A stretch of 64,000 nucleotides of DNA from an uncultured delta proteobacterium. Its GTDB lineage: Bacteria; Desulfobacterota; Binatia; Binatales; Binataceae. Position numbers and translations under genes: made by a program. The notes under the pieces are model-generated. The model was not told the origin of the DNA. It did no database searches and saw only the letters and a program-made list of their open reading frames with translations. Location: contig CAWILO010000004.1 of NCBI GenBank assembly GCA_963836955.1, positions 152,916 through 216,915 of the forward strand, written 5' to 3'. Positions 22,144-62,311 of this stretch are shown here, in pieces (within the stretch, counting starts at the first letter, position 1; the number at the start of each line of letters is the position of its first letter).

Positions 22144-22390
22144 CTAGTTGATCACAATGCGAACAAAATAGTCTACGAAGCGCCGCTAACATATTGGGAA
22201 CACGAGGGGAGTTTCGATACAGCGACCGAATGCGAGCGCAAGCGGAAGGATGATGTTCGCGTGATGAGTAACCTCAGAACGAATAGCACGGATCGCAGTC
22301 CAGGCTCTGACCTCGGCCTCAACTCGGCTCTGGCGGCTAAATGCGTCGCGTCTGACGATCCCCGGCTGAAGGAAAAATAACTACAAAGCT

Positions 22391-38124: not shown

Positions 38125-38439
38125 CTAGGTCATCAGCAGAATCAAGAGGCCGCCGGTCACTATGAAGCCGCCGCCGAGCAGGATTCTGTCGTCGGGGACC
38201 TGCTTGAAGATAATCAGCGAAATCGTCTGCGACACTACGAAGAAGATCGCGATGTAGATTCCCATCAGGCGATTGAAATCGACGCCGCTTTGGTTGACCA
38301 GGATTCCGTAAGCGAACAGCGCGAACGCACCGGCTGCGAGCGAGTATCCGTAGCTGTGAAGTCCTATCCGGACGAGCGCATCGCCGCCGACCTCGAGCAG
38401 CGCGGCCAGCACCAGCACGGCGAGCGTCTTTAAGATCAA
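38125..38439 (-). CDS. small 4-TM membrane protein (SMR/EamA-like, ArnE/ArnF-like)
   Basis: 104 aa with four hydrophobic helices. Size and topology resemble the small multidrug resistance fold. Confidence 0.45.
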   Translation of the reverse strand: MILKTLAVLVLAALLEVGGDALVRIGLHSYGYSLAAGAFALFAYGILVNQSGVDFNRLMGIYIAIFFVVSQTISLIIFKQVPDDRILLGGGFIVTGGLLILLMT

Positions 38440-38458
38440 CGGCGGAGTCGCTTACGAC

Positions 38459-39790
38459 CTAATAGTAATCGACCGGATCGATCTGCCGCTTTGCGCCCCA
38501 GTAGAAGAGCATGTTCTCGGTCAGCCCCTGCCAGGTGAACTTACCCGGCGGCATCAGCAGCCGCTTGAACATCGACTTCAGCGAGTAGAACTCCTTCGTG
38601 CAACGCCACACGCCTTCCTCGACTTCCTGCGGCGACATATTCTTGGGCACGAACATGCAGCGGAAGTTGTTGGTATAGAGGTCGGCGTCGGGGATTATCA
38701 CGCGGCCCTCGTTCTCGAGTTGCGTGCGCATCGGCGTGCCGACGCGCGGCGTCACCGTGTTGAAGAAAGCCTCAGGCGCCTTGACCTCGTGCAGGAACTT
38801 CAGGGTGTCGTCGAAAATGCCCGGATGATCCTCTTCCAGCCCGAACAGGAAGTTGAGCGAGTAGTAAATCCCATATTTTTCGAGCTTCTTGAGCAGCTTC
38901 TTGTACTGCCCCGCGTGATTCTGAATCTTGTTCATCGACAGAAGGCTTTCCTGGCTGATCGATTCCACTCCGATATTGACGTGGAAAATTCCCGCCTTCG
39001 CCGCCAGCTCCAGCAAATCGTCGTCGTGATTCGAGTTGATCGTCCAGAGGCACGAGAAGCGGATGTTGAGCGGCTCCAGCGCCTTGAACAGCTCACGCGC
39101 AAACTTGTGCTTGCCGGTGATCTGATCGTCGATGAATTGAAAGCGCCTGAAGCCGGTAATCTTGACGACCTGTTTTATCTCCTCGACGATGTCCTCGATC
39201 GGGCGCGTCCGATACGCGCCGTCATAGAAGACCGGGATCTCGCAGAAGGAGCATCGATAAGGGCATCCGCGGCTCGCCTGCACCGGCACCGCCTTGAACA
39301 GGTAGCGATTGAGCTTGAGCAGCTCGTGGCGAGGGCGCGGCAGGTTCTTCAGGTCGTGCATCTTGTCGGCTTTGTAGATTTGCTTGAGCTTGCCGTCGCG
39401 CCAGTCCTGCAGCAGTTCGGGCCACACCAGGTCAGCCTCGCCCTGCACGACCGCATCGCAATGATGGAGAGCTTCTTCGGTCTGCAGCGTCGCATGGAAT
39501 CCGCCGAACACAACCGGGATACCGCGCTTGCGGAACTCGTCGCCGAGCTGGTACGCGCGCAGCGACGCGCCAATGGTGGTCGTCATGCCGACCAGGTCCC
39601 ATCCGCCGTCGAAATTGATTTCCTCGAGGCGCTCGTCACATAGCGTTACGTCGTAATCGTCCGGCGTCAGTCCTGCCATCAATGGAATCATCAGACCCAT
39701 GATCAGCCGCCAGCGCGTTTTATGCGGTGTGCCGTCGAGATGGACGGTGGTGGGTTGCACCAACAGGATACGTGGCTTCTTACCGTTCAT
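38459..39790 (-). CDS. B12-binding domain radical SAM protein (class B)
   Basis: N-terminal cobalamin-binding Rossmann-like region (ILLVQP...). Radical SAM cluster motif SRGCPYRCSFCE. 443 aa. Confidence 0.85.
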   Translation of the reverse strand: MNGKKPRILLVQPTTVHLDGTPHKTRWRLIMGLMIPLMAGLTPDDYDVTLCDERLEEINFDGGWDLVGMTTTIGASLRAYQLGDEFRKRGIPVVFGGFHATLQTEEALHHCDAVVQGEADLVWPELLQDWRDGKLKQIYKADKMHDLKNLPRPRHELLKLNRYLFKAVPVQASRGCPYRCSFCEIPVFYDGAYRTRPIEDIVEEIKQVVKITGFRRFQFIDDQITGKHKFARELFKALEPLNIRFSCLWTINSNHDDDLLELAAKAGIFHVNIGVESISQESLLSMNKIQNHAGQYKKLLKKLEKYGIYYSLNFLFGLEEDHPGIFDDTLKFLHEVKAPEAFFNTVTPRVGTPMRTQLENEGRVIIPDADLYTNNFRCMFVPKNMSPQEVEEGVWRCTKEFYSLKSMFKRLLMPPGKFTWQGLTENMLFYWGAKRQIDPVDYY

Positions 39791-39822
39791 ACTTCCTCCG
39801 CCTGCAGGCCTCGGTTCCCTTC

Positions 39823-41040
39823 CTACAGGCTTTCAGGTTCCATGGACGATTGGGTCCGGCCGGTAATCCAGATCAGGAGCAGCGCAAACACATAAGTACC
39901 GAACGCCGTCCCCCAAGCGAAGTACTCTAGCCGATTAATTAGAGCTAATACCACGAGTAAGTATGCGAAATCGCGGCCACTCCATCGATCGACCTTGTCC
40001 AGCCATGCGGCAGCCTGCGCGCCTTTCATTTTGAACGCCCGCCATGTGGCGTATGCACACATTGTGAATCCGCCGAGCAGGACAGGAATCAGGTACAGGT
40101 AGGCGCGGCTGTGATCGACCCGGTAGCATCCAACCAGCAGGCCGACGAACACTGCGGCGTGGACGATATTGTCAGTGAGCACGTCGAGCGCCCCACCGAA
40201 ATCGCTCTCGATCATTTTGAGCCGCGCGAGTTCGCCGTCGACGCCGTCGATCGTGATCGAGGTCAAAAAGAAAATCGCCGCGAACAGGCGCATCCAGTAG
40301 TTAGGCACAGCGAACATCCAGGCGCACGCCAGCCCGAATATCGTGTTGGCGACCGTGACCATGTTGGGTGTGACCCCGGTATGTGTGGCGAGCCAGTAGC
40401 TGATTCGCCACGAAATCCGCCGGTCGACCCATCGCGCCATCGGCGCATCTTTGTGCGCTGATTCCTCGCGAATTGTCTTCGCCAGCCGCAGTTCCGCTTC
40501 CTCGCGATCCTCGGGCCGTCCGTTCAGCGCGAAGGGCAGCAGGCTGGCGGAGGGCGCCGCAACGGTGGTCGAAATTCCCCCACGCTTGAGAATCTCGCCG
40601 ACGGGTCCGGTCGCGATTTCACCGCCACGGTCGCGATCGGTGCTGACGACCCGGTGTACTGACTGCGGGTTAGACGCGTGCGCGTCGAGGACCCGCGCCA
40701 GCTGCGATTTCGCGAATACCAGGTTCCCGGAGAAGGACACGCAAGGCGACGACGGGTCGATGCCTATTTCCTGCGCATTCCGATGATTCAGAATCTCACT
40801 GAACGATTCGACCATCGAAACCGTGTCGTAATTTTTGAACCGGCCCATCGCGCGAGCGACGTCCGGATATTGCTCGCGCGGCGCAGCCACGACAAACCGT
40901 TTGATCCCGGCGCGCTCGCAATTAATCATCAGCCGCTCTAACAGCGGGCGGCCGAAGACCGCATTATCCGCGCGGTCAGGTGCAGCGATTAGAGCAGTTT
41001 CAATCACCAACGTCTTCGTTAAACCTAGTCTTCCCCCCAA
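39823..41040 (-). CDS. fusion protein: N-terminal nucleotidyltransferase-like domain + C-terminal CDP-alcohol phosphatidyltransferase
   Basis: C-terminal half has a perfect CDP-OH transferase signature DGELAR-x8-G-x3-D-x3-D (DGELARLKMIESDFGGALDVLTD) in a multi-TM region. The N-terminal ~200 aa is a soluble NTP-transferase-like fold lacking a clean GxGxR motif. Confidence 0.75.
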   Translation of the reverse strand: MGGRLGLTKTLVIETALIAAPDRADNAVFGRPLLERLMINCERAGIKRFVVAAPREQYPDVARAMGRFKNYDTVSMVESFSEILNHRNAQEIGIDPSSPCVSFSGNLVFAKSQLARVLDAHASNPQSVHRVVSTDRDRGGEIATGPVGEILKRGGISTTVAAPSASLLPFALNGRPEDREEAELRLAKTIREESAHKDAPMARWVDRRISWRISYWLATHTGVTPNMVTVANTIFGLACAWMFAVPNYWMRLFAAIFFLTSITIDGVDGELARLKMIESDFGGALDVLTDNIVHAAVFVGLLVGCYRVDHSRAYLYLIPVLLGGFTMCAYATWRAFKMKGAQAAAWLDKVDRWSGRDFAYLLVVLALINRLEYFAWGTAFGTYVFALLLIWITGRTQSSMEPESL

Positions 41041-41285
41041 GCTCTCGTAGTCGGCGCCACGGTAACACAGCGGTAACGCCGATGGAAGTAGCCCTGCTAC
41101 TAGCTTCCAGCTCTAATTATGAGTTCGGCTTTCATCTGATGCCAGCCCTTGTCGAGTGGATCGTAAGGCGGAAAATCGGGTTCTCCAAGGTACATTGCCA
41201 AACAGCTCGCGCTATTTCCAATCGCCCACCTTAGTTGCAGCCGAAACTAGAGGATACCTATCGCGGCTGGTAAACTGACCATTTC

Positions 41286-42026
41286 ATGGGCACCATTACC
41301 GCCTTGCTATTCGATTTCGGCGGCACGCTCGACGGGCCGGCGCATTGGCTCGACCGTTTCCTCTTGAGCTACCGCGCTGCCGGGGTCGAAATATCACGCG
41401 CCGAACTCGACCCGGCGTTCGATCATGCGACCCGTATCGGCTACGGCGCGACGCGGGTCGTGGCGCGGTTCGGGATGACGGACCTGGTGCGATTCCTCGT
41501 CGGCCATCAATTCGAATATCTCCAAAAAAGCGGGCCGGAGGCGCTCCGCAAGGTACTCGAGGATTCCGGCGCCGCCGGACGCCATCGCTTCGTCGAAGAC
41601 GTGACAAAATCGTTCGTCCGTGAGACATCGGCTGGCCTGGCGCATAGCCGCGACGTCATCGGCTCTCTCAAGAGCCGCTTCAAGCTGGGAATCGTTTCGA
41701 ACTTTTATGGAAATCTGGACCGGATCCTCGAAGAGGCGAGGCTGGATCGATTCTTCGCGGCAGTTGCTGATTCATCGCGCGTCGGAATCTTCAAACCCGA
41801 GCTGGGCATCTTCGCAGCCGCTTTAAGAAAACTTAATTGTGCACCCGAATCGGCTGCGATGATTGGAGACTCTCTCGCGAAGGATTGCGTGCCCGCACAT
41901 GAGCTCGGGATGCGGACCGTTTGGCTGCGCACCGAGTCGCAACGCGGCGACGATGCTTCCGGGGCGCACGCCGCCGCCGATATCACGATCCGAACGATCG
42001 ACGAAGTTGCGCAAATTCAATGGTGA
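41286..42026 (+). CDS. HAD-superfamily hydrolase (subfamily IA-like phosphatase)
   Basis: LLFDFGGTL motif I at the N-terminus and downstream HAD motifs (GIVSN, GD). 246 aa. Confidence 0.8.
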   Translation: MGTITALLFDFGGTLDGPAHWLDRFLLSYRAAGVEISRAELDPAFDHATRIGYGATRVVARFGMTDLVRFLVGHQFEYLQKSGPEALRKVLEDSGAAGRHRFVEDVTKSFVRETSAGLAHSRDVIGSLKSRFKLGIVSNFYGNLDRILEEARLDRFFAAVADSSRVGIFKPELGIFAAALRKLNCAPESAAMIGDSLAKDCVPAHELGMRTVWLRTESQRGDDASGAHAAADITIRTIDEVAQIQW

Positions 42027-42751
42027 CGAGATTGCAAGGAGCAATTATTGCCGCGGGCCGTGGCGACCGGCTGCGCGTCTCGACGCGCGACGACATTCCC
42101 AAGCCGCTCGTCATGCTCGGCGGTGAGGCGATGCTCTCGCGGCAGGCGCGCGCACTGATCGACGCGGGCGCGTCGTCAGTTGTCGCGGTGATCAACTCCG
42201 AGACGGCGCGCGTCGCGAGTGAGAACCAAATTGCGCTCGAGGTTCCGTCGTCGGTCCGGCTCGTGGTTCGCGACACCGCCAACTCGATGGAAACGATGCT
42301 GGCGCTTGGTGACGAGTTAGCATCAGGATGGTTTATAGCGTCGACGGTCGACGCTGTAATTCCACAGGCGGAATTGGCGCGTTTTGTTAATGAGTCGCGA
42401 CGGAAAATCGAGGATTGTGGCGACAAAAAACTAGTCGGTGTGCTGGCTGTCACAAAATGGCGCGGTGAAGCCAAGCCGCTTTTCGCCGATGTAACAGAGA
42501 ACGGGTTGATCCTGCGCCTCGGCAACCGTCAGACTTCTATGGTGACGGCAGGACTCTATTTCCTGTCGACCCGAATTTTCGACTTCGCCGCCGACGCGCG
42601 CCGCGCGGGACTCGATGCGCTCCGACGCTTTCTTGGACTGATTATCGAACGCGGGATGCGGCTGGATGCGATCGAGGTCGAAGGATCAATTGATGTGGAT
42701 GAGGCGGAGGACCTCGACGCCGCGCGCCTCGCAACACGGAAGATGCCATGA
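42019..42751 (+). CDS. sugar/alcohol-phosphate nucleotidyltransferase (NTP_transferase fold)
   Basis: MVTRLQGAIIAAGRGDRLR...PKPL matches the G-x-G-x-R-L nucleotide-binding signature. Start overlaps the HAD stop by 8 nt. Confidence 0.7.
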
Positions 42752-43569
42752 GCTATAGAGCTTTGGGAATTTATCGGGAACCCGAGTTTTCACCGGGCAA
42801 GGTCGAGGCTGACGCCGCGATTCTCGACGCCACCTTGTCTGAACTCAAGCGCGAGGGTGTCGAGATCCAGACGATCGATGCGGTCAGTTTCGCAGTGGCT
42901 CTGCCCGTTCGCGCCGATCTCGTGCTGCCGATGTGCCAAGGGCCGCGCGCGCTCAAGCGGCTGGCTGAAATCGAGCAGGCGGGGGCTATAGCGATGAACT
43001 CCGCGCTCTCGATTCGCAATTGCTACCGCGATTTGCTCGCGCCCGGTCTCGAGCGCGCCGGAGTGCCCACACCGCCGGGCGTGCTGGTCGCGACAGACGT
43101 GCCGCTCGATACGCGCAAGCTTGCCGCGCTGGATTTATCGGCGGGTGTGTTCGTCAAGCGCGGCGACTTGCACGCACTCGCGCCTGAAGACGTTCAGCGG
43201 GCGGCCGATCGTGCGGAGATCGAGTCGATCCTCGCCGATTTCGCGCGCCGCGGAATCCGCTTCGCCTACATGCAGCAGGAAGTCGTTGGACGGGTCGTGA
43301 AATTTTACGGCGTCAGCGGCGGTACGCATTTCAGCGTGCATCCGGAGGACGAGGAAGTCGCCGAAGCCGCTGTGCGCGCGCTGTCGGAGGCGGCAACCGC
43401 TGCGGCCGGTGCGCTCGGCCTCGAGGCGTGGGGCGGAGACGCGGTCTTGAGTGGCGATCGTTTTGCGATTATCGATTTTAACGACTGGCCCAGTTACAGC
43501 CGGGTGCGCGGACCTGCCGCGCGTGCGATCGCACGCCGCGCGATGAGTCTGCTTGGCCGCCCGCGCTAG
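42748..43569 (+). CDS. ATP-grasp domain protein
   Basis: C-terminal GGDAVLSGDRFAIIDFNDWP resembles the ATP-grasp Mg/ATP site (E/D-x-N). 273 aa. Translationally coupled to neighbours. Confidence 0.55.
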   Translation: MSYRALGIYREPEFSPGKVEADAAILDATLSELKREGVEIQTIDAVSFAVALPVRADLVLPMCQGPRALKRLAEIEQAGAIAMNSALSIRNCYRDLLAPGLERAGVPTPPGVLVATDVPLDTRKLAALDLSAGVFVKRGDLHALAPEDVQRAADRAEIESILADFARRGIRFAYMQQEVVGRVVKFYGVSGGTHFSVHPEDEEVAEAAVRALSEAATAAAGALGLEAWGGDAVLSGDRFAIIDFNDWPSYSRVRGPAARAIARRAMSLLGRPR

Positions 43570-44977
43570 AATCGCGCCGGAAATTCAAATAAGGATTCGG
43601 ACCGCCAATCAATTGAAGACAACTACCAACGGAAAACTTCCGGCAATCAGGACCGCCGTTCCTGGACCCAAGTCGAAGGAGATCTTCGACCTCGAACAAA
43701 AATATATCGCCCCGGGCCGTCAGCGAATCTCGCTGCTCGCCGGCCTCGCGTTCGATCACGGCGAAGGCGCGACTCTTACCGACGCCGACGGCAACACTTA
43801 CGTAGATTTTTTCGCGGGCGTCGCAGTCGCAAGCCTCGGTCATGCGCATCCTGGCATGGCGCAGGCGCTGTCGAACCAGGCGTCGCGGCTGATGGTCGGC
43901 ACCTTCGCCACCAAAGAGCGCGCGGCCGCGTTCAAGGCGCTGGCTGAAGTCGCGCCCGCCGGCCTGACTCGGGCACATCTATATAGCGGCGGTGCGGAGG
44001 CAGTCGAAGCTGCCTTGCGGCTCGCGCGCTCTGCTACTGGAAAGCATGAGGCCGTGAGCTTCTGGGGCGGCTTCCACGGCAAGACCGGTGGCGTTCTAGG
44101 ACTGATCGGCGACGAATCGAAGCAAGGCTACGGACCGTTGCAGGGCGGACAGTACACAGTTCCATACGCGGACTGCTACCGATGCCCGTTCAAGTTGAAG
44201 TATCCCGACTGCGGGCTGTACTGCGTCGATTTCGCGCGCCAGCAAATCAAGATGAGCTCCAGCGGCGCGCTCGCTGCGATTGTCGCCGAGCCGATGCAAG
44301 GCACGGCCGGCAACGTGATCCCGCCCGACGACTGGCTGCCCGCGGTTAAATCCGTCGCCAAGGATTTCGGCGCGATGCTGATAGCCGACGAAATGATCAC
44401 CGGCTTCGGACGGACCGGAAAATGGTGGGGCGTCGAGCATAGCGGCGTCCGTCCCGATATCGTCACCGTCGGCAAGGGGATGGGCTCCGGATTTCCTGTT
44501 TCGGGGGTGCTGCTAAGCGACGAACTGGGCAAAGCGGAGCCGTTCTCGAAGCCGAGTGCGTCGTCGTCGAGCTACGGCGGAAATCCGCTGGCGGCGGTGG
44601 CGGTGGCGGAAACGATCGGCGCGATTCAGCGACAGCACCTGGTCGAAAACTCGCGCAAGGTCGGCGCAAGGATGCTGTCGAAGCTGACTCAGCTCAAAGA
44701 AAAATACGAGTTTATCGGCGACGTCCGCGGCAAAGGGTTGCTGATTGGCGTCGAGCTCGTACGCGATCTCGAAACCAAGGAACTGCTCGGCAAGAAAGTC
44801 ACCGAGCTGATCTTCGCCGAATGCCTCAAGCGCGGACTCGTCATCATGGGCTACTTCCCCAAGATTCGAATCAACCCCGCGCTGGTTATCACCGAAGCGC
44901 AGGCCGAGGCCGGCGTCGAGATAATGGACGAAGTGTTCGCGCATGTCCGCGACCACGTTGACTGGCAGCACGCGTAA
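43553..44977 (+). CDS. class III pyridoxal-phosphate-dependent aminotransferase
   Basis: Fold I AT-III blocks (YSGGAEAVEAALRLAR, ADEMITGFGRTGKWWG, VTVGKGMGSGFP with PLP-Lys). Start uncertain: TTG at 43553 or later. Confidence 0.85.
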   Translation: MAARARIAPEIQIRIRTANQLKTTTNGKLPAIRTAVPGPKSKEIFDLEQKYIAPGRQRISLLAGLAFDHGEGATLTDADGNTYVDFFAGVAVASLGHAHPGMAQALSNQASRLMVGTFATKERAAAFKALAEVAPAGLTRAHLYSGGAEAVEAALRLARSATGKHEAVSFWGGFHGKTGGVLGLIGDESKQGYGPLQGGQYTVPYADCYRCPFKLKYPDCGLYCVDFARQQIKMSSSGALAAIVAEPMQGTAGNVIPPDDWLPAVKSVAKDFGAMLIADEMITGFGRTGKWWGVEHSGVRPDIVTVGKGMGSGFPVSGVLLSDELGKAEPFSKPSASSSSYGGNPLAAVAVAETIGAIQRQHLVENSRKVGARMLSKLTQLKEKYEFIGDVRGKGLLIGVELVRDLETKELLGKKVTELIFAECLKRGLVIMGYFPKIRINPALVITEAQAEAGVEIMDEVFAHVRDHVDWQHA

Positions 44978-44992
44978 GCGAAATCTTTTTCG

Positions 44993-45469
44993 ATGGCCAA
45001 CCCGAACGGCAACGCGGCGCTGTTCTTCGATTTGGGCGGTACCCTCGTCAAACTCAACGACGAGCGCGAGATTCCGCTCGACGCAAACGGCAACATTGTA
45101 GTCGAACTGCTTCCGGGCGTGACGGAAAAGCTTCGCCCCCTGCATAACCATCTGATGTTCGTCGTGACCAACCAGGCGGGGATCACGCGCGGACGGCTGA
45201 CGGCGGAAAAAGTCGAGGCGGCTCTTCGGCAGCTCGACCATCAGCTCGGCGACATCCTCACCGCGTGGCAAGTCTGCCCGCATACCGACGACGACAAATG
45301 CGAATGCCGCAAACCCAAGGGCGGAATGATCGCAGAGCTAGCCGACCAGTACGGAGTGGACCTGGCATCGTCAACGATGGTCGGCGATCAGGAAGTCGAC
45401 AGGCTCGCAGGCGAAGCTGCAGGCGTCGCGAAGTTCGTCGCAGCCGAGGACTTCTTCGGCTGGAAGTAG
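44993..45469 (+). CDS. HAD-IIIA phosphatase, GmhB / histidinol-phosphatase-like
   Basis: FFDLGGTL motif I. Zinc-finger-like CPHTDDDKCECRKPK insert characteristic of GmhB-type D,D-heptose bisphosphate phosphatases. Confidence 0.75.
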   Translation: MANPNGNAALFFDLGGTLVKLNDEREIPLDANGNIVVELLPGVTEKLRPLHNHLMFVVTNQAGITRGRLTAEKVEAALRQLDHQLGDILTAWQVCPHTDDDKCECRKPKGGMIAELADQYGVDLASSTMVGDQEVDRLAGEAAGVAKFVAAEDFFGWK

Positions 45470-45690: not shown

Positions 45691-45806
45691 GAGGCTCCAG
45701 ATGCAAGTGTGCAACGTGCGTCGTCTTTTCGTTTCGTCCTTCCTTTGTCTGTCGTCTTTTTTTTGTGTCATTCTGAGCGCAGCGAATGAGCGAGGAGAAA
45801 ACAAAA

Positions 45807-46658
45807 ATGAAAATCGGATTGCTTACCCCCTTCACTGGCAAAAATGCGCATCCCGGAGAATTTGCTCGAGTCGCCGAGTCTCTCGGCTTCGAATCCATTT
45901 GGGTGCCCGAGCATCCCGCGATGCCCGCCAATCCCAAGCAGCAGTTTCCCACCGGCGGTCCGATTCCGCCCGCGTACTTCACGATGGCCGATCAGATGAT
46001 CGCGCTCGCGATGGCCGCCGCCACTACCAAGAATCTCAAACTCGCCACCGGCATCTGCCTCGTCCCGGAGCATGAGCCGCTCACTCTCGCCAAACAGTTC
46101 GCGACTCTGGACGCATACTCGGGCGGCCGTGTGCTGTTCGGGATTGGCGCGGGATGGTTGCGCGAGGAGAGCGATCTGTTCGGCGTCGATTTTCCCCATC
46201 GATGGACCGAGACTGCCGAGATAGTCTCCGCGATGCGCAAGCTGTGGACCGAGGACCAGGCATCGTTCGAGGGCAAGTACGTAAAGTTCCCGCCAGTGAA
46301 ATCGCTGCCGAAACCCGCGCAGAAATCGGGACCGCCCGTGCTGATCGGCAGCCTCGACAAGAACGCGCTCAAGCGCGTGGCGAAGTGGGCCGACGGATGG
46401 TGTCCTATCGCACTCAACGCCTCGCAGTTGAAGACGCGGGTCGATGAGCTCAAGCGCGAGTGCCAGGCGGTCGGCAGGAACTTCTCGGAATTGGACATCA
46501 CGATCATGGGCGGAATCCGCGGCGATCGCGCAACTGTGCAGGCCGGGCTCAAGGAATTTGCGGAAGCAGGAGCGGGTCGATTCGTCGCAGGGCTGGGAGA
46601 TCTAACGTTCGAGAGCTCAGAGGGAACGCTGAAGAAGATCGCCGCGCTGTACGTTTAG
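45807..46658 (+). CDS. LLM-class (luciferase-like) flavin/F420-dependent oxidoreductase
   Basis: GAGGAG SD 9 nt upstream of ATG (MKIGLLTPF...). Conserved TIM-barrel LLM blocks (ESIWVPEH, LGIGAGW). Confidence 0.8.
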   Translation: MKIGLLTPFTGKNAHPGEFARVAESLGFESIWVPEHPAMPANPKQQFPTGGPIPPAYFTMADQMIALAMAAATTKNLKLATGICLVPEHEPLTLAKQFATLDAYSGGRVLFGIGAGWLREESDLFGVDFPHRWTETAEIVSAMRKLWTEDQASFEGKYVKFPPVKSLPKPAQKSGPPVLIGSLDKNALKRVAKWADGWCPIALNASQLKTRVDELKRECQAVGRNFSELDITIMGGIRGDRATVQAGLKEFAEAGAGRFVAGLGDLTFESSEGTLKKIAALYV

Positions 46659-47198: not shown

Positions 47199-48230
47199 AT
47201 GGCTGGTCGAACGAAACTACGAGGCACTATTTCCGGGTTTGGCGAGGTTGCTGCCCGGGCCCATCTGCCCGGATGGCGCACGCGCGACGGCGTTGCCATC
47301 GGCGCTATCCACGATCCTGTTTCTGAGCGGCGTCACGAAGCTATTCGGTTGATCAAGAATGTTCGCGTCTATGACGACCTCGAGTTGATGCTTGACGGTG
47401 AGGCTCCCGATTTTGTGGATGTAGCGAGTCCGCCGGGGTTCCATCATGAGGCCGCACGCCTGGCGCTTGAAGCGGGCGCGCACGTCTTGGTCGAGAAGCC
47501 GCTCGCGCTTTCGCTTGGCGAGTTCGATAGGCTTGCAGGCTTGGCCGCCGAGAAACGACGGGTCTTGATGTGCGTGCACAATTGGAAGTACGCACCGGCG
47601 TACGCGGCTACGCGCAAGGCGATCGAGGCCGGCAGGCTCGGCCCAATTCGCTTCATGTCGATCGACCGGTTGCGGACAGAGCCTGCGGGCGCTGGAGGAA
47701 GCGGTGGCAAGTGGCGCGCATCAGCGGCGTCGGGTGGCGGGATTCTGATCGATCACGGATGGCACGTTTTCTACCTGATGAACTGGCTGCTTGGAGGTGA
47801 TTCGCCGGTGTCGATATCGGCACGGCTCGAGTCGCCGGCCGGCGTCGACGTCGACGACGTGGCCGAGGTGCGAATCAGGTTCGCGAACGGATCGCTCTCT
47901 CGGGCACATCTTTCGTGGCGGGCGCCGGTGCGCAGAACTTCGGCGCTCATCTATGGAGAGCGGGCGTGTATCGAAATTGAAGGTGATCGGATGACGATTA
48001 CGGATCGCGCCGGGAAGGTTGAGGACCTGTCGCTCGCGGATGCAGCCGACGATTCATACCATTCGACATGGTTCGCCGGCGTTGCGGAAGAGTTCGAGCG
48101 AGCGGTCACCGAAGGAACCGATTCGCCCGTTGCAAGGCGCAATCTGGCCGAGGCGCGGGTCGCGCTCATGCTAATCGACGCAGCACGGAAATCGTCTATC
48201 AACAACGGCGTAGAGATATATCTCCCGTAA
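47199..48230 (+). CDS. Gfo/Idh/MocA family oxidoreductase
   Basis: N-terminal Rossmann fold (GFGEVA), EKPLA motif and C-terminal alpha/beta domain. Confidence 0.8.
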   Translation: MAGRTKLRGTISGFGEVAARAHLPGWRTRDGVAIGAIHDPVSERRHEAIRLIKNVRVYDDLELMLDGEAPDFVDVASPPGFHHEAARLALEAGAHVLVEKPLALSLGEFDRLAGLAAEKRRVLMCVHNWKYAPAYAATRKAIEAGRLGPIRFMSIDRLRTEPAGAGGSGGKWRASAASGGGILIDHGWHVFYLMNWLLGGDSPVSISARLESPAGVDVDDVAEVRIRFANGSLSRAHLSWRAPVRRTSALIYGERACIEIEGDRMTITDRAGKVEDLSLADAADDSYHSTWFAGVAEEFERAVTEGTDSPVARRNLAEARVALMLIDAARKSSINNGVEIYLP

Positions 48231-48439: not shown

Positions 48440-49150
48440 GTGGCTACGACTGACGACAGGAGAAGGGCGGGGAATCAGCCCCCGACTATGGGCGCATCGC
48501 AGATCAAAGTGGGGACATCGGAGCCGGGCAGCCAGTCGCAGGATTCGCGAGACGAGATCCTGAAGGCCGCCATGCAGCTATTTGCCAATCGCGGGTTTCA
48601 TGAGACTTCGATGTCGGAAGTGGCGCGCGAGGCGCGAGTCAGCAAGGCGCTGATTTTCTGGCATTTCAAGACCAAGGAAGACCTGTTCGTCGCCGTGCTG
48701 AACCGGCTGCTGGAGCCGTACTTTATCGATTTTACCGAAGAAGCGGCGGCGATGGACGAGCGCGCGCAGATCGAGAAGCTGGTCGAGTCTTACCTGTCGT
48801 TCGTGCGCGACAACGCCAGCTCGGTGCGATTTTTCCTCGCGCAGATGCTGCACGACCAGAAGCTGTCCGAGAGTCTCAACGAGCAGGTGCTCAGGCTGTA
48901 CAGCGGATATCGCGCGATGCTGGTCGAGCTGATCAAGAGCGCGCAGGAGAAGGGAATCTGTGCGCGGCGGTCGGCACCGGAATCGGCGGCGGCGTTTCTG
49001 CTGTCGGCGCTTAATGGATTGCTGATCGAGTATTTGTTCATGGGTGCCAACGCGATCGACCCGGAAGGGGCGGTAGCAATGGTAGGGGAATGGCTGTTCG
49101 GCCCGTCGGTCTCATCTTCATCGTCGGAAGGCGGCGCGCCAGCCGCCTGA
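48440..49150 (+). CDS. TetR/AcrR family transcriptional regulator
   Basis: HTH block FANRGFHETSMSEVAREARVSKALIFWHFKTKEDL. Directly upstream of hpnH. Confidence 0.8.
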   Translation: MATTDDRRRAGNQPPTMGASQIKVGTSEPGSQSQDSRDEILKAAMQLFANRGFHETSMSEVAREARVSKALIFWHFKTKEDLFVAVLNRLLEPYFIDFTEEAAAMDERAQIEKLVESYLSFVRDNASSVRFFLAQMLHDQKLSESLNEQVLRLYSGYRAMLVELIKSAQEKGICARRSAPESAAAFLLSALNGLLIEYLFMGANAIDPEGAVAMVGEWLFGPSVSSSSSEGGAPAA

Positions 49151-49184: not shown

Positions 49185-50189
49185 ATGCGCATTCCATTGA
49201 GACAAATGATCGATCTCGGCCGCTACATGCGCGCGAAGAAACGAGCGGGCGAGAAATACTTTCCACTAGTGCTGATGCTCGAGCCGCTGCACGCGTGCAA
49301 CCTCGCGTGTATCGGATGCGGGCGAATCGTCGAGTACAAGGACACCATCCGCGACATGATGCCGCTTGACGAGGCGCTGCATTCGGCGGAGGAAGCAGGC
49401 GCGCCGATCGTGTCGATCTGCGGCGGCGAGCCGCTGATGTACAAGCATATCGCGGCACTGACGCGCGGGCTGATCGAGGATCAGAAACGTCACGTGATGA
49501 TCTGCACGAATGCGATCCTGCTCGAGCGATTCGTCAAGCAGGTTCCGCCGAGCACATATTTGAGCTTCAACCTGCACCTGGACGGTATGCGCGAGACCAA
49601 CGATCGCGTAACGGACAGGGTGGGGCATTTCGACATCGTCGTGAAGATGATCAAGATGCTGAAGGAAAAGGGCTACCGCGTGCAGACCAACACGACGGTG
49701 TTCCGCGAGACCAGCGGCCGGGAGCTCGAGGACATGGTCAAGTTTCTGACGAGCCTCGGCGTCGATGGGATGTTGCTGAGTCCCGGCTATCACTACCAGG
49801 TGCTGAACAACGACCAAGAGTATCTCAAGAAGGAAGAGATGCCGGCGAAGTTTATCAAGGTTCGCGACATGGCGAACGATTATAAAATCATCAACACGCC
49901 GATTTACCTGGACTACCTGGTCGGCAAGCGCGACATGCAATGCAGTCCGTGGACGACGGTGACGCGCAATCCGCAAGGATGGAAGGGGCCGTGCTACCTG
50001 ATAACGAACGGTCACTACAAGACGTTCGACGAGATGCATGCGGCGACCGACTGGGAATACTATCGAACCAAGCAGGATTTCCGCTGTCGCGACTGCAAGC
50101 TGCATTCGGGATTCGAAGGCACCGTGGCGCTCGAGTTCGGGAAGAATCTCAAGGACTCGTGGCGGATGGTGCGGCACTACGTTGCGTGA
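49185..50189 (+). CDS. hpnH: adenosyl-hopene transferase (hopanoid-associated radical SAM)
   Basis: CNLACIGCG radical SAM motif. Full-length similarity to the HpnH architecture (PLVLMLEPLHACN..., C-terminal CRDCKLHSGFE). Hopanoid gene neighbourhood. Confidence 0.85.
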   Translation: MRIPLRQMIDLGRYMRAKKRAGEKYFPLVLMLEPLHACNLACIGCGRIVEYKDTIRDMMPLDEALHSAEEAGAPIVSICGGEPLMYKHIAALTRGLIEDQKRHVMICTNAILLERFVKQVPPSTYLSFNLHLDGMRETNDRVTDRVGHFDIVVKMIKMLKEKGYRVQTNTTVFRETSGRELEDMVKFLTSLGVDGMLLSPGYHYQVLNNDQEYLKKEEMPAKFIKVRDMANDYKIINTPIYLDYLVGKRDMQCSPWTTVTRNPQGWKGPCYLITNGHYKTFDEMHAATDWEYYRTKQDFRCRDCKLHSGFEGTVALEFGKNLKDSWRMVRHYVA

Positions 50190-50238
50190 TGAATCGCAAG
50201 CGCGGTCGAAGCGGAGCGCGCTCGCGCGCGGCTAGCCC

Positions 50239-52244: not shown

Positions 52245-52309
52245 TCAGGTTGCGGCGAAGTTGTGGCGGTTCCCGCGGGATGCGGGCTGAGTCGAGACAG
52301 GGGTGAAAT

Positions 52310-54268: not shown

Positions 54269-54278
54269 GCAGGTCGCT

Positions 54279-55448: not shown

Positions 55449-55452
55449 GACG

Positions 55453-57283: not shown

Positions 57284-57284
57284 A

Positions 57285-58649: not shown

Positions 58650-58664
58650 CTACTTGCTAATCGA

Positions 58665-59669: not shown

Positions 59670-59676
59670 GCCCGCG

Positions 59677-60576: not shown

Positions 60577-60652
60577 CGCCGCTTCCAAAATTTCGCTGAG
60601 TGTGGCAAGCGTCGGTTATCGAAATACGATGAAGCAGGCGAGGTGACCTGGC

Positions 60653-62207: not shown

Positions 62208-62311
62208 TCGCTTGCGCCCATTCTGATTTGTCAGCGACCCCGCTTGAGCGGACTCCCCGATGCTAGCAAAATTGGGCAGGTGTTTCTTTTCAGTGCTCGC
62301 GGTGGCGCAGT

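What the first reader, a model, noticed from the sequence alone, without database searches (positions are those of the whole stretch)
38125..45469. Candidate uncharacterised CDP-alcohol-based biosynthetic cassette (rSAM-B12 + NTase-like/CDP-OH transferase fusion + NTase + 2 HAD phosphatases + ATP-grasp + AT-III)
Two converging translationally coupled blocks sit together. The minus block holds a small SMR-like membrane protein, a class-B radical SAM and a membrane CDP-alcohol phosphotransferase with a perfect DGxxARx8Gx3Dx3D signature fused to an NTP-transferase-like domain. The plus block (starts overlapping by 4-17 nt) holds HAD phosphatase, nucleotidyltransferase (GxGxRL), ATP-grasp, class-III aminotransferase and a GmhB-type phosphatase. 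The NTase/CDP-OH-transferase fusion is the architecture of IPCT/DIPPS (di-myo-inositol-phosphate synthesis), and also of phosphoinositol-lipid head-group pathways. The added aminotransferase, ATP-grasp and radical SAM imply an aminated or otherwise tailored polar head group or solute. The cassette lies ~3.7 kb from a large hopanoid locus, where HpnO-type AT-III and HpnJ-type B12-rSAM enzymes tailor side chains. A role in membrane-lipid head-group or compatible-solute chemistry is therefore plausible, but the product is not predictable.
Basis: partly seen in the sequence, partly recalled or inferred. Interest (0 to 1): 0.7.

Follow-up and report, generated by a model that had tools for sequence, protein, structure and literature searches.

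The report
Hopanoid-linked inositol head-group gene cassette
This Binatus gene cluster is one version of an uncharacterised operon found in at least nine bacterial phyla, which appears to build a CDP-activated, probably aminated, inositol head group; it sits inside or beside hopanoid lipid gene islands, so it may make an unrecognised membrane lipid.

Summary
All eight genes are real and lie at the stated coordinates. Three corrections apply. The two blocks diverge from a shared 245-bp intergenic region; they do not converge. The N-terminal domain of the CDP-alcohol transferase is NTase-like but has lost its GxGxR loop. The Gfo/Idh/MocA oxidoreductase at 47199-48230, outside the stated range, belongs to the cassette.

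In 57 non-Binatia loci carrying the same transferase family, 33 hold at least three of HAD, NTase, ATP-grasp, AT-III and GFO, usually contiguous. Inositol-3-phosphate synthase lies within 10 kb in 22 loci and an HpnL-like flippase-type gene in 35. Strict hopanoid genes occur in 14. In Pseudolabrys the cassette lies between bona fide hpnN-mlaA-hpnL and hpnA.

The NTase family is closest to inositol-1-phosphate cytidylyltransferase. The transferase is closest to AF2299/DIPPS. ORF6 is a family-less ATP-grasp.

HAD, NTase, ATP-grasp and MIPS match the unconfirmed "alternative inositol-lipid cluster" of Bacteroidota. GFO plus AT-III is a new extension.

Best reading: a CDP-(amino)inositol head group is transferred as a phosphodiester to a membrane lipid, most likely a hopanoid polyol. 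The product is unproven, and no MIPS gene lies in this window.

The parts
38125..38439 (-). Small four-segment membrane protein, weakly YnfA/UPF0060-like. It is a peripheral member confined to the genus Binatus.
   Evidence: Pfam UPF0060 scores 22.6 bits, below the cut-off of 24.9. Four hydrophobic segments. A homologue is present in only 8 Binatus loci.
38459..39790 (-). B12-binding-type radical SAM enzyme. It is not HpnJ and its reaction is unknown.
   Evidence: Radical_SAM scores 68.7 bits, with borderline B12-binding and DUF4070 hits. Its best NCBIfam hits are BchE, ApyD, PhpK and HpnJ, all far below their cut-offs. CxxxCxxC motif at residue 176. It is 89-98% identical across Binatia, where the CDP-AP is only 51-89% identical. 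Relatives of 38-42% identity lie next to the CDP-AP in L040, L045 and L048.
39823..41040 (-). Degenerate NTase-like domain fused to a six-TM CDP-alcohol phosphotransferase (AF2299/DIPPS-like). The likely true start is 41007 or 41010.
   Evidence: PF01066 scores 51.3 bits. Best NCBIfam model is IPCT/DIPPS. Best solved relative is AF2299 (4o6m), E 2.4e-14. The N-terminal domain matches the NTase profile at 96.4% probability with the GxGxR loop deleted. The signature Asp, Gly and Arg residues are invariant. Start codons were examined.
41041..41285 (.). Shared intergenic region between the two divergent operons, presumably holding their promoters.
   Evidence: ORF map and sequence. One weak sigma-70-like match lies on the minus strand, which is no more than the shuffles give.
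41286..42026 (+). HAD-IA family hydrolase with the atypical motif I D-F-G-G-T.
   Evidence: Pfam Hydrolase, HAD_2 and Hydrolase_like. Motif I is invariant in 34 homologues from all phyla. It is 31% identical to the HAD of the Prevotella inositol cluster, which carries DYGGT.
42020..42751 (+). Nucleotidyltransferase of the inositol-1-phosphate cytidylyltransferase type.
   Evidence: NTP_transf_3 and NTP_transferase hits. G13, G15, R17 and K28 are invariant. The family profile's best solved matches are IPCT 2xme (1.5e-23), IPCT/DIPPS 4mnd (5.7e-23) and TmIMPCT 4jd0 (1e-18); sugar-1-phosphate NTases reach at best 1.6e-16.
42748..43569 (+). ATP-grasp enzyme of a family with no Pfam or NCBIfam model. 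It is either a kinase or a ligase.
43553..44977 (+). Class-III aminotransferase. The start may instead be TTG 43613.
   Evidence: Aminotran_3 scores 315 bits. It is 48-60% identical across phyla, the best-conserved cassette protein between phyla. It is present or absent together with GFO in all but three loci.
44993..45469 (+). HAD-IIIA hydrolase, GmhB/HisB-N-like, with motif I D-L-G-G-T. It is an addition confined to Binataceae.
   Evidence: TIGR01656 scores 88.5 against a cut-off of 84.15; the GmhB model scores 87 against 178. It occurs in 16 of 23 Binatia-like loci and in none of the 57 others. Motif read from the sequence.
45786..46658 (+). F420-dependent LLM-class oxidoreductase (Rv2161c family). 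It is a possible accessory gene specific to Binatia, lying between HAD3 and GFO.
   Evidence: TIGR03619 scores 243 bits against a cut-off of 166.9. It is found at this position in about ten of the Binatia-like loci, L001 included.
47199..48230 (+). Gfo/Idh/MocA oxidoreductase. It is a cassette member that lies outside the finding's coordinates.
   Evidence: Best NCBIfam hit is inositol 2-dehydrogenase IolG, below cut-off. A homologous gene lies within 900 nt of the CDP-AP match in 23 of the 33 non-Binatia loci that have it. It is the best window match for the Pseudolabrys cassette GFO. The EKP motif and D185/H189 are invariant.
48440..49150 (+). TetR-family regulator between the cassette and hpnH. 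It is a possible local regulator.
   Evidence: NCBIfam TetR-family hits. The position is conserved in Binatia loci L002, L008, L010, L013 and L014.
49185..63172 (+). Adjoining hopanoid locus (context): hpnH, FPP synthase, alcohol dehydrogenase, shc, dxr, hpnC, hpnD, hpnE, hpnA, a CruF-like gene, an SDR gene, an unknown gene and hpnK.
   Evidence: HpnH, SHC, Dxr, HpnC, HpnD, HpnE, HpnA and HpnK all score above their NCBIfam cut-offs.

Best explanation
The cassette makes a CDP-activated cyclitol phosphate derived from inositol. It then transfers that group as a phosphodiester head group onto the hydroxyl of a membrane lipid. The acceptor I think most likely is the polyol side chain of a bacteriohopanepolyol.

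Proposed steps:
1. Inositol-3-phosphate arises from MIPS. MIPS is encoded in the operon in relatives but not in this window.
2. The GFO oxidoreductase and the AT-III act as a dehydrogenase/transaminase pair. They turn one ring hydroxyl into an amine, giving an inosamine.
3. The ATP-grasp and the atypical HAD act as an obligatory pair on the cyclitol. Most likely this is a transient phosphorylation followed by dephosphorylation, which sets the phosphate that is then activated.
4. The IPCT-like NTase makes the CDP-cyclitol.
5. The six-TM CDP-alcohol phosphotransferase uses the CDP-cyclitol as donor. Its dead NTase-like domain probably docks the free NTase.
6. In relatives, HpnL-like flippase-type proteins and HpnN/MlaA/MlaC-type transporters move the product outward.
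7. In Binatus, a B12-radical-SAM enzyme, a second HAD and an F420-dependent oxidoreductase add unknown tailoring.

Shown by computation: gene content, family assignments, conserved synteny, the inositol link and the embedding in hopanoid islands.

Inferred: every substrate, the order of steps, amination of the ring, the kinase role of the ATP-grasp and the identity of the acceptor.

I put about 0.65 on 'an inositol-derived head group on a membrane lipid' and about 0.4 on the full statement with a hopanoid acceptor.
For: Synteny:
- The 57 non-Binatia loci were selected only by the transferase motif. Of these, 33 carry at least 3 of HAD/NTase/ATP-grasp/AT-III/GFO, usually as one contiguous operon.
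- The record titles name Desulfobacterota, Elusimicrobiota, Verrucomicrobiota, Acidobacteriota, Methylomirabilota, Nitrospirota, Alphaproteobacteria and Chloroflexota, besides Binatota.

Inositol link:
- MIPS lies within 10 kb in 22 of 57 loci.
- The NTase profile is closest to IPCT.
- The transferase is closest to IPCT/DIPPS, AIPS, PIPS and AF2299.
- Prevotella and Parabacteroides carry NTase, ATP-grasp homologue, CDP-AP and HAD in one cluster; inositol-3-phosphate synthase is adjacent in Prevotella only. This is the cluster proposed to make inositol lipids through CDP-inositol, and its carriers make inositol-phosphoryl-dihydroceramide (PMC9246714).

Lipid destination:
- An LPG_synthase_TM gene lies in 35 of 57 loci. 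It is directly adjacent in at least 12 and fused to the transferase in P0244, P0249, P0255, P0298 and P0303.
- MMPL, MlaC, MlaA and OEP genes are neighbours.

Hopanoid link:
- In this window the cassette, counting GFO, abuts TetR and hpnH.
- In Pseudolabrys the order is hpnN (1205 bits, cut-off 1100), mlaA, hpnL (270, cut-off 196), CDP-AP, GFO, AT-III, ATP-grasp, NTase, HAD, MIPS, hpnA (458, cut-off 368).
- In L029 the order is shc, hpnG-like, an unknown gene, CDP-AP, hpnK, then hpnI, mlaC, an hpnN-like gene, OEP and an hpnL-like gene.
- HpnI, HpnJ and HpnK score above their cut-offs next to the cassette in Syntrophobacteraceae and in other Binatia.
- In all, 14 of 57 loci hold strict hopanoid genes within 10 kb.
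- An independent survey lists CDP-alcohol phosphatidyltransferase 1409 times within 20 ORFs of shc, against 1398 for hpnG and 1333 for hpnN, without comment (10.1101/2025.07.29.667474, supplement).

Module logic:
- AT-III and GFO are present or absent together.
- The ATP-grasp travels with HAD and NTase even where AT-III and GFO are missing (L032, L033, L038, L065 and Bacteroidota).
- The ATP-grasp Mg-site motif D...D-x-N-x-x-PSF matches the ITPK kinases and not the E-x-N of RimK and PsnB.
Against: - No MIPS, hpnL-like or hpnN-like gene lies in this 64-kb window. For Binatus itself the inositol origin is therefore extrapolated.
- No phosphodiester-linked hopanoid has been described (my knowledge). 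A 63-compound survey of Alphaproteobacteria lists none (PMC12583986).
- In 43 of 57 loci there is no strict hopanoid gene within 10 kb.
- Outside Alphaproteobacteria, the HpnN-, HpnL- and HpnM-like neighbours score below their family cut-offs.
- Six-TM prokaryotic CDP-APs characterised so far take soluble acceptors. AF2299 and DIPPS do not process lipids (PMC4634129).
- The Bacteroidota cluster that shares the head-group module belongs to organisms without hopanoids. Its transferase is not orthologous: 27% identity over 80 residues and no N-terminal domain.
- Both HADs lack the Asp+2 general acid expected of a phosphomonoesterase.
- AT-III enzymes are not the usual inosose aminotransferases, which are DegT-type (my knowledge).
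Confidence: 0.4

Rival explanations
1. The head-group chemistry is the same, but the acceptor is an ordinary glycerolipid or sphingolipid. The product would be an aminated analogue of phosphatidylinositol or inositol-phosphoceramide, a zwitterionic 'phosphatidyl-inosamine'. On this reading the cassette is merely co-located and co-exported with hopanoids as another outer-membrane lipid.
For: - The HAD-NTase-ATP-grasp-MIPS module is shared with the Bacteroidota cluster, whose carriers make inositol-phosphoryl-dihydroceramide and PI.
- Flippase-type, Mla and MMPL neighbours are generic lipid-trafficking genes.
- DAG-kinase-like lipid kinases lie in L049 and L054.
- Most loci (43 of 57) show no strict hopanoid gene within 10 kb.
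Against: - The transferase family found here is not the Bacteroidota one.
- It recurs inside hopanoid operons in three or four unrelated lineages.
- hpnN and hpnL reach equivalog or subfamily cut-offs right next to it in Pseudolabrys.
Confidence: 0.25
2. The cassette makes a soluble phosphodiester, a DIP-like or aminated DIP-like compatible solute. The route would be the DIPPS one: CDP-inositol plus a cyclitol phosphate, followed by HAD dephosphorylation.
For: - MIPS, an IPCT-like NTase, a DIPPS/AF2299-like six-TM transferase and a HAD together make the complete DIP enzyme set.
- AF2299 and DIPPS use only soluble substrates, and six-TM CDP-APs take soluble acceptors (PMC4634129).
Against: - This reading does not explain the fusion of the transferase to LPG_synthase_TM.
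- It does not explain the recurring flippase, Mla, MMPL and OEP neighbours.
- It does not explain the embedding in hopanoid islands.
- The hosts are soil, peat and sediment bacteria by their record titles. They are not the hyperthermophiles in which DIP occurs (my knowledge).
- The Bacteroidota relatives make inositol lipids.
Confidence: 0.1
3. Part of the cassette works directly on the hopanoid side chain and not on the cyclitol. The AT-III would be the HpnO equivalent, converting the ribosylhopane aldehyde to 35-aminotriol. GFO would reduce or oxidise C-35. The RimK-like ATP-grasp would N-acylate the amine with an amino acid, as in the N-aminoacyl-aminotriols. The inositol module would be a separate function.
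For: - The AT-III is the only class-III aminotransferase next to the window's hopanoid locus.
- Its best models are in the acetylornithine-aminotransferase family.
- The ATP-grasp fold is closest to the amino-acid ligases RimK and LysX.
- N-phenylalanyl-, N-tryptophanyl- and N-ornithinyl-aminotriols exist, and their genes are unknown (PMC12583986).
- The enzyme that makes BHT from ribosylhopane is unknown.
Against: - The ATP-grasp co-occurs with HAD and NTase where AT-III and GFO are absent, including in hopanoid-free Bacteroidota.
- AT-III and GFO are nearly always contiguous with MIPS, NTase and CDP-AP in one operon.
- HpnO is not known to need a GFO partner (my knowledge).
Confidence: 0.1
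4. The cassette is a nucleotide-sugar or heptose pathway for a surface polymer. The NTase would be HddC-like and the second HAD GmhB-like.
For: As a single sequence, the window NTase hits HddC best (5xhw, 2e-5). HAD3 resembles GmhB (87 bits).
Against: - The NTase family profile prefers IPCT by seven orders of magnitude over sugar-1-phosphate NTases.
- HAD3 is below the GmhB cut-off, lacks Asp+2 and is confined to Binataceae.
- No heptose isomerase or kinase, glycosyltransferase or polymerase lies in the cassette.
Confidence: 0.02

Closest known systems
Putative 'alternative inositol lipid cluster' of Bacteroides vulgatus and Prevotella (Heaver et al. [quoted passage not shown] It was predicted to make PI or inositol-phosphoceramide through CDP-inositol and is functionally unconfirmed.
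   Same: - The HAD is homologous (31% identity, same D-x-G-G-T motif).
- The NTase is homologous (26-28%).
- The previously unnamed 'hypothetical protein' is the ATP-grasp (30-32%).
- In Prevotella nigrescens these lie in one cluster with MIPS.
- An LPG-synthase-like neighbour is also reported there.
   Different: - The Bacteroidota transferase is 318 aa, lacks the NTase-like domain and aligns only over the motif (27% over 80 residues).
- Bacteroidota have no GFO/AT-III pair, no rSAM and no hopanoid genes.
- The window has no MIPS gene.
Bifunctional IPCT/DIPPS (di-myo-inositol-phosphate synthesis; PDB 4mnd, 2xme) and T. maritima IMPCT (4jd0)
   Same: - The domain order is NTase-like domain followed by a six-TM CDP-AP.
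- IPCT/DIPPS is the best-scoring NCBIfam model for the transferase.
- The free NTase family is closest to IPCT.
- MIPS is linked in relatives.
   Different: - The fused NTase-like domain has lost the GxGxR...K loop, and a separate NTase is encoded.
- The score of 74 bits is far below the equivalog cut-off of 580.
- The hosts are not known hyperthermophiles.
- Extra GFO, AT-III, ATP-grasp and rSAM genes are present.
- The neighbours are lipid-trafficking and hopanoid genes.
AF2299 of Archaeoglobus fulgidus (PDB 4o6m): a CDP-alcohol phosphotransferase with a cytidylyltransferase-like cytosolic domain and no established physiological function
   Same: It is the best solved relative (E 2.4e-14). 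It has the same architecture of a cytidylyltransferase-like domain plus six TM helices (PMC4634129).
   Different: The alignment covers only residues 187-312. AF2299 binds CDP-glycerol and does not process lipids. Its gene context was not examined here.
Hopanoid side-chain and transport genes (hpnG/H/I/J/K/O and hpnL/M/N, plus candidate hpnS)
   Same: These genes are physically interleaved with the cassette in several lineages. HpnL (unknown function), HpnN, HpnM and HpnS are its commonest neighbours. A B12-rSAM and an AT-III echo HpnJ and HpnO.
   Different: None of the cassette proteins reaches an Hpn family cut-off (rSAM 79 against 578 for HpnJ). No known hopanoid pathway uses inositol, CTP or a CDP-alcohol transferase.
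Aminocyclitol routes from inositol, as in hygromycin A and streptomycin: MIPS, phosphatase, Gfo-type inositol dehydrogenase, aminotransferase, then kinase
   Same: The enzyme logic is the same: MIPS, a HAD, a GFO dehydrogenase and an aminotransferase (PMC10949010 abstract; the streptomycin steps are from my knowledge).
   Different: Those aminotransferases are DegT-type and not class III (my knowledge). Their products are soluble antibiotics. They have no NTase/CDP-AP transfer step.
CpgD and the ceramide diphosphoglycerate pathway of Caulobacter (10.1101/2025.01.09.632243)
   Same: An IPCT-like soluble cytidylyltransferase makes a CDP-activated small head group (CDP-glycerate) that is added to a membrane lipid.
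   Different: The substrate is different, the transferring enzyme CpgA is not yet defined, and the pathway has no inositol, aminotransferase or ATP-grasp.

Membership tests
IPCT/DIPPS bifunctional DIP synthase | An active N-terminal cytidylyltransferase domain with the GxGxR...K nucleotide-binding loop | tested here: not met
   The domain is NTase-like (hhalign 96.4%), but the loop is deleted. The motif is absent in almost all family members and intact (GRGSRL) only in L044, L055 and L072.
IPCT/DIPPS bifunctional DIP synthase | Family-level sequence score at the NCBIfam equivalog cut-off | tested here: not met
   NF041135 scores 74 bits against a cut-off of 580. It is nevertheless the best-scoring model.
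IPCT/DIPPS bifunctional DIP synthase | The product is soluble di-myo-inositol phosphate | not testable with these tools
   The lipid-trafficking and hopanoid context argues against it.
CDP-alcohol phosphotransferase superfamily | The signature D-G-x2-A-R-x8-G-x3-D-x3-D within TM2-TM3 | tested here: met
   D268 through D290 are exact and invariant in 17 homologues. PF01066 scores 51.3 bits against a cut-off of 22.
AF2299-type CDP-AP | A cytidylyltransferase-like but non-catalytic cytosolic domain fused to a six-TM transferase | tested here: met
   the architecture is as described in PMC4634129. That the domain is non-catalytic is inferred from loss of the motif.
PIP synthase (PgsA1/PIPS) and archaetidylinositol-phosphate synthase | Family score at cut-off, with CDP-DAG or CDP-archaeol as donor | tested here: not met
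   PIPSynth scores 49.6 against 170, and the AIPS model 53.7 against 180. Donor specificity is not testable here.
PgsA / PssA housekeeping phospholipid synthases | Family score at cut-off and no conserved linkage to the neighbouring genes | tested here: not met
   pgsA scores 28.5 against 109 and pssA 28.9 against 107. Linkage is conserved across phyla.
Bacteroidota alternative inositol-lipid cluster (Heaver 2022) | NTP transferase, HAD hydrolase and CDP-alcohol transferase clustered with MIPS | tested here: inconclusive
   The HAD, NTase and ATP-grasp are homologous (E 1.6e-29, 2e-15 and 2e-25). The transferase is not orthologous. MIPS is absent from the window but present in 22 of 57 related loci.
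Inositol-1-phosphate cytidylyltransferase (IPCT/IMPCT), for the free NTase | Closest similarity to IPCT, with the catalytic Arg, Lys and Asp retained | tested here: met
   The profile's best solved matches are 2xme, 4mnd and 4jd0. G13, G15, R17, K28 and D111 are invariant. These correspond to R16, K26 and D112 of TmIMPCT as quoted. Substrate was not tested.
ATP-grasp superfamily (ORF6) | The three-domain ATP-grasp fold with Lys and Mg-ligand motifs | tested here: met
ITPK-type inositol-phosphate kinases (ORF6) | D-x-N Mg site followed by x-x-P-S-F, and a kinase rather than ligase reaction | tested here: inconclusive
   The motif aligns with AtITPK4 (E 0.004 over 48 residues), whereas RimK and PsnB show E-x-N. 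The overall fold is nearer to the ligases. Activity is untested.
HpnJ (hopanoid B12 radical SAM) | TIGR03471 equivalog score | tested here: not met
   79.4 bits against a cut-off of 577.6. True HpnJ proteins in related loci score 728.
HpnO (hopanoid aminotransferase) | Orthology to an experimentally verified HpnO | not tested
   No HpnO model or sequence was available. IPR005814 is not specific for HpnO.
HAD phosphatases, including GmhB | Motif I D-x-D-x-T/V with the Asp+2 general acid/base | tested here: not met
   HAD1 has DFGGT, invariant in 34 homologues. HAD3 has DLGGT. The GmhB model scores 87 against 178. The nucleophile Asp and motifs II-IV are present.

The most novel reading that the evidence does not exclude
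The operon makes the first phosphodiester-linked composite hopanoid: bacteriohopanetetrol-35-phospho-inosamine or -inositol. The predicted [M+H]+ values are 788.507 and 789.491. This would be a hopanoid 'phospholipid' whose zwitterionic aminocyclitol head group is built through CDP-inosamine. It would give HpnL its long-missing function as the partner or flippase of the transferase. It would also add a new biomarker class, produced in at least nine bacterial phyla of soils, peat and sediments.
Probability: 0.33. Interest if true: 0.9.

Novelty: new variant of a known kind. Interest (0 to 1): 0.74.

Why it matters
Hopanoids are major bacterial membrane lipids and the source of the most abundant molecular fossils. 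Several genes of their islands, hpnL among them, have had no function for more than 25 years, and surveys still find composite hopanoids of unknown structure.

This cassette links inositol metabolism and CDP-alcohol chemistry to those islands across many phyla. It therefore predicts a specific lipid class that can be searched for, with exact masses, and it names cultured organisms in which to look.

It also adds two unrecognised parts to the still unconfirmed CDP-inositol route to bacterial inositol lipids in gut Bacteroidota: a family-less ATP-grasp and a HAD with an atypical catalytic motif. It further suggests that many environmental bacteria aminate the inositol head group, which would turn an anionic lipid into a zwitterionic one.

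Even if the acceptor proves to be diacylglycerol, the product would be a new phospholipid class.

Tried and rejected
- An exact-sequence look-up of the 405-aa ORF found nothing because the annotated start differs. The 368-aa call P0001 located a near-identical Binatus contig. That contig is not the window itself: the AT-III/HAD3 spacing differs by 16 nt.
- A single-sequence AlphaFold run on ORF6 failed (pLDDT 35). It worked only with a 49-sequence alignment.
- I first took the rSAM::CDP-AP fusion P0321 as support for the B12-rSAM link. Its rSAM part is unrelated to the window's enzyme, so I dropped that argument.
- Plasmid-borne relatives of the B12-rSAM (31-37% identity, in Citrobacter, Clostridia and Vibrio) lie in unrelated contexts and gave no functional clue.
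- The heptose reading (HddC/GmhB) was rejected by the profile search.
- Promoter and terminator scans gave no more sites than shuffled sequence.
- Base composition shows no island.
- Literature searches found nothing for CDP-inositol with aminotransferase and ATP-grasp. A badly chosen five-term query including inosamine, phosphatidylinosamine and aminoinositol returned only irrelevant head-group papers. Searches for a CDP-alcohol transferase discussed with hopanoids found nothing in main texts. Only a supplementary table lists the family near shc.
- The afdb50 fold library was unavailable.
- MIPS, hpnL-like and hpnN-like genes were sought in the window and not found.

Full report
**What is in the window**

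The window is from a Candidatus Binatus (Binatota) genome. A protein 100% identical to residues 38-405 of the transferase lies on an ENA Binatus-type contig, and the closest named homologues are annotated Candidatus Binatus.

All eight ORFs of the finding exist. They form two operons that diverge from a 245-bp intergenic region at 41041-41285.
- Minus strand: the transferase (39823-41040), a B12-type radical SAM enzyme (38459-39790) and a small membrane protein with four hydrophobic segments (38125-38439).
- Plus strand: HAD-IA (41286-42026), NTase (42020-42751), ORF6 (42748-43569), AT-III (43553 or 43613 to 44977) and HAD-IIIA (44993-45469).

Junctions and start codons are.

Downstream lie an F420-type LLM oxidoreductase, a Gfo/Idh/MocA oxidoreductase (47199-48230) and a TetR gene. 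A large hopanoid locus follows: hpnH, FPP synthase, shc, dxr, hpnC, hpnD, hpnE, hpnA and hpnK, all scoring above their NCBIfam cut-offs. Upstream are panB/panC and housekeeping genes. Base composition shows no island.

**The individual proteins**

*Transferase.*
- It carries an exact CDP-alcohol phosphotransferase signature, D268-G-x2-A-R-x8-G-x3-D-x3-D290. The signature residues are invariant in 17 full-length homologues of 27-52% identity.
- Its best family models are IPCT/DIPPS, archaetidylinositol-phosphate synthase and PIP synthase. PgsA and PssA score much lower.
- Its best solved relative is AF2299. AF2299 is a six-TM enzyme with a cytidylyltransferase-like cytosolic domain (PMC4634129).
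- The first ~185 residues have no Pfam hit. Their profile matches the cassette's own NTase family (hhalign 96.4%, E 1.3e-9; controls 2% and 0.1%). About 13 residues covering the GxGxR...K loop are deleted.
- This degenerate form is the rule in the family. A few members keep GRGSRL.
- The "fusion" is therefore real, but its NTase half is probably catalytically dead.

*Free NTase.* It keeps G-x-G-x-R and the Lys. As a family profile it is clearly closest to inositol-1-phosphate cytidylyltransferases: 2xme at 1.5e-23, 4mnd at 5.7e-23 and 4jd0 at 1e-18. The best sugar-1-phosphate NTase reaches 1.6e-16.

*ORF6.*
- It has no Pfam or NCBIfam family.
- With a 49-sequence alignment, AlphaFold gave a confident model (pLDDT 93.4). 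The model is an ATP-grasp fold.
- Its Mg-site motif (GGD...D-x-N-x-WPSF) aligns with the ITPK4 motif "DLNYLPSF". RimK and PsnB have E-x-N at that position.

*Other proteins.*
- The AT-III is a generic class-III enzyme.
- GFO keeps the EKP motif and the D...H catalytic residues but is not specific at family level.
- Both HADs have motif I D-x-G-G-T. The Asp+2 general acid is replaced by Gly, and this is invariant in HAD1 homologues from all phyla.
- The rSAM is not HpnJ (79 bits against a cut-off of 578).

**Conserved neighbourhood**

One scan of GTDB species genomes with the transferase alignment returned 80 loci. I called ORFs in these loci, clustered them, and mapped the window proteins onto them by tblastn.

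Within Binatia-like loci (L002-L024), the arrangement seen in the window is conserved. This includes the rSAM at 89-98% identity and HAD3.

Among the 57 other loci:
- 33 carry at least three of HAD1, NTase, ATP-grasp, AT-III and GFO.
- The typical form is a contiguous operon: (MIPS)-HAD-NTase-ATP-grasp-AT-III-GFO-CDP-AP.
- Record titles name Desulfobacterota/Thermodesulfobacteriota, Elusimicrobiota, Verrucomicrobiota, Acidobacteriota, Methylomirabilota, Nitrospirota, Alphaproteobacteria and Chloroflexota.
- The GFO gene lies within 900 nt of the matched part of the transferase gene in 23 of the 33 loci that have it. The window's GFO at 47199-48230 is its counterpart, so the cassette extends beyond the finding's coordinates.

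Further neighbours within 10 kb:
- MIPS in 22 of 57 loci.
- An LPG_synthase_TM (HpnL-like) gene in 35 of 57 loci. It is fused to the transferase in at least five representative proteins.
- HpnN-like MMPL transporters in 14 loci, plus MlaC, MlaA and OEP genes.

The modules sort cleanly:
- AT-III and GFO come and go together.
- The ATP-grasp stays with HAD and NTase even where AT-III and GFO are missing (L032, L033, L038, L065).
- Minimal loci hold only NTase, MIPS and transferase (L045 and L074; L048 lacks a detected MIPS), with a relative of the window's rSAM in L045 and L048.

**Link to a published prediction**

A tblastn search of plasmid records with ORF6 hit Bacteroidota.
- In Prevotella nigrescens the order is NDP-sugar synthase, hypothetical protein (the ATP-grasp homologue, 32% identity), CDP-alcohol phosphatidyltransferase, HAD (motif DYGGT) and inositol-3-phosphate synthase.
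- Parabacteroides distasonis shows the same order, without an adjacent MIPS gene.

This is the "alternative inositol lipid cluster" of Heaver et al. 2022. It was predicted to make PI or inositol-phosphoceramide through CDP-inositol. Its carriers do make inositol-phosphoryl-dihydroceramide, but the genes remain unconfirmed (PMC9246714; PMC10191378). The ATP-grasp member was not named there.

Those organisms end with a plain inositol head group. The ATP-grasp therefore leaves no stable adduct. That favours a transient, kinase-type role paired with the HAD; this is inference. The Bacteroidota transferase itself is not orthologous to the window's.

**Link to hopanoids**

The transferase family of the window recurs inside hopanoid islands.
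- In Pseudolabrys the order is hpnN (1205 bits, cut-off 1100), mlaA, hpnL (270, cut-off 196), transferase, GFO, AT-III, ATP-grasp, NTase, HAD, MIPS and hpnA (458, cut-off 368).
- In a Desulfobacterota MAG (L029) the order is shc, hpnG-like, an unknown gene, transferase, hpnK, then hpnI, mlaC, an hpnN-like gene, OEP and an hpnL-like gene.
- HpnI, HpnJ and HpnK score above their cut-offs beside the cassette in Syntrophobacteraceae and in other Binatia.
- In all, 14 of 57 loci have strict hopanoid genes within 10 kb. By my estimate, a random 20-kb window would overlap a hopanoid island in about 1% of cases.

A recent survey proposes HpnL, HpnM (MlaC-like) and HpnS (MlaA-like), together with HpnN, as hopanoid-associated. 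It leaves HpnL without a function (10.1101/2025.07.29.667474). Its supplementary table lists "CDP-alcohol phosphatidyltransferase" 1409 times within 20 ORFs of shc, comparable with hpnG and hpnN, in the unexplained "Other" class. I could not check whether those are the same subfamily.

**Most likely mechanism**

I conclude that the cassette builds a CDP-activated cyclitol phosphate derived from inositol and transfers it as a phosphodiester to a membrane lipid. GFO and AT-III probably convert a ring hydroxyl to an amine. This dehydrogenase/transaminase logic is known from aminocyclitol antibiotics (and my knowledge). The ATP-grasp and HAD probably form a phosphorylation/dephosphorylation pair.

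- I give about 0.65 to "an inositol-derived head group on a membrane lipid".
- I give about 0.4 to the version in which the acceptor is a bacteriohopanepolyol.

Every substrate is inferred.

The main caveats are these:
- No MIPS, hpnL-like or hpnN-like gene lies in this window.
- Six-TM CDP-APs characterised so far take soluble acceptors.
- No phospho-hopanoid is known.
- The HAD motif is atypical for a phosphatase.
- The ATP-grasp fold is nearer to the ligases.

The rivals are a glycerolipid or sphingolipid acceptor (0.25), a DIP-like solute (0.1), direct action of AT-III, GFO and ATP-grasp on the hopanoid side chain (0.1), and a heptose or sugar-nucleotide pathway (0.02).

**An unexplained lead**

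Roseiarcus fermentans and three other Alphaproteobacteria contain a later-eluting isomer of BHT cyclitol ether of unknown structure (PMC12583986).
- A Roseiarcus MAG carries hpnN, mlaA, hpnL, the transferase and GFO (L058).
- Inosamine is isomeric with the aminocyclitol of that lipid.
- A CDP-alcohol transferase would give a phosphodiester and not an ether, so this is only a lead.

**Novelty and verdict**

The chemistry is of a known kind: CDP-alcohol, Kennedy-type head-group transfer, and inositol lipid or DIP pathways.

The new elements are:
- the GFO/AT-III extension;
- the family-less ATP-grasp and the atypical HAD as obligatory members;
- the pseudo-NTase transferase family paired with HpnL;
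- the systematic embedding in hopanoid islands across phyla;
- the Binatus-specific rSAM, HAD-IIIA and F420 oxidoreductase additions.

I rate it a new variant of a known kind, with interest 0.74.

**Limits of this analysis**
- Loci were selected through the transferase motif, and only the best 80 of 547 were kept.
- ORF calling was a simple longest-ORF procedure.
- Phylum names come from record titles.
- No experiment or whole-genome search of Binatus was possible.

Noticed in passing
window 41286-42026 and 44993-45469; L082 10796-11497: Both HAD-family proteins have motif I D-x-G-G-T, with the Asp+2 general acid/base replaced by Gly. In HAD1 this is invariant across all phyla, including Prevotella (DYGGT). 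It is not the pattern of an ordinary phosphomonoesterase, so the reaction may involve a good leaving group or phosphotransfer.
   Followed up: partly
L082 8998-9786 (Prevotella nigrescens NZ_CP082843.1 53615-54403); L083 8980-9843: The 'hypothetical protein' between the NTase and the CDP-alcohol transferase in the Bacteroidota alternative inositol-lipid cluster is a homologue of the window's ATP-grasp. It was not named as a cluster member in Heaver et al. 2022.
   Followed up: yes
JGI 3300041966 contig (P0244, no DNA held) and L086 2663-6382 (P0249): CDP-AP::LPG_synthase_TM fusion proteins, 44-50% identical to the window transferase, lie directly after a Sulfotransfer_3 gene. One also has OEP, an ABC ATPase and MlaC beside it. 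This hints at a sulfated head-group variant.
   Followed up: no
window 38459-39790: Within Binatia the B12-type radical SAM protein is far more conserved (89-98% identity) than its neighbour the transferase (51-89%). This is unusually strong constraint for a tailoring enzyme.
   Followed up: partly
L026, L027, L039 (cluster c39); L048, L056, L076 (cluster c44); L041, L046 (cluster c67); P0321: Small radical SAM proteins without a B12 domain, some with SPASM domains, recur next to the transferase. One such domain is fused to a transferase (P0321). They are unrelated to the window's B12-rSAM.
   Followed up: partly
L049 14049-15101; L054 8969-10018: A eukaryote-like diacylglycerol/ceramide kinase (DAGK_cat plus DAGK_acc) and sigma-54 response regulators lie inside the Desulfobacterales versions of the locus.
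   Followed up: no
window 59677-60576, 61308-62315, 63236-63751: The hopanoid locus contains a CruF-like carotenoid hydratase homologue and a 335-aa ORF with no family hit. An ArsN1/phosphinothricin-type N-acetyltransferase follows hpnK.
   Followed up: no
window 21104-22192 (-): A DDE transposase (DDE_Tnp_1 with DUF772) lies about 16 kb upstream of the cassette. It overlaps a 377-aa ORF on the other strand.
   Followed up: no
window 51177-52244: A zinc-type alcohol dehydrogenase lies between FPP synthase and shc. Its hits are threonine-3-dehydrogenase-like and scyllo-inosose-3-dehydrogenase (IolM)-like, all below cut-off. The same domain family (L-threonine 3-dehydrogenase/ADH) appears as an unexplained neighbour of shc in the Belin-lab table (family 87, 300 occurrences).
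   Followed up: no
PMC12583986; L058: A later-eluting isomer of BHT cyclitol ether of unknown structure occurs in Roseiarcus fermentans and three other Alphaproteobacteria. A Roseiarcus MAG carries hpnN, mlaA, hpnL, the transferase and GFO, and inosamine is isomeric with the cyclitol-ether aminocyclitol.
   Followed up: no
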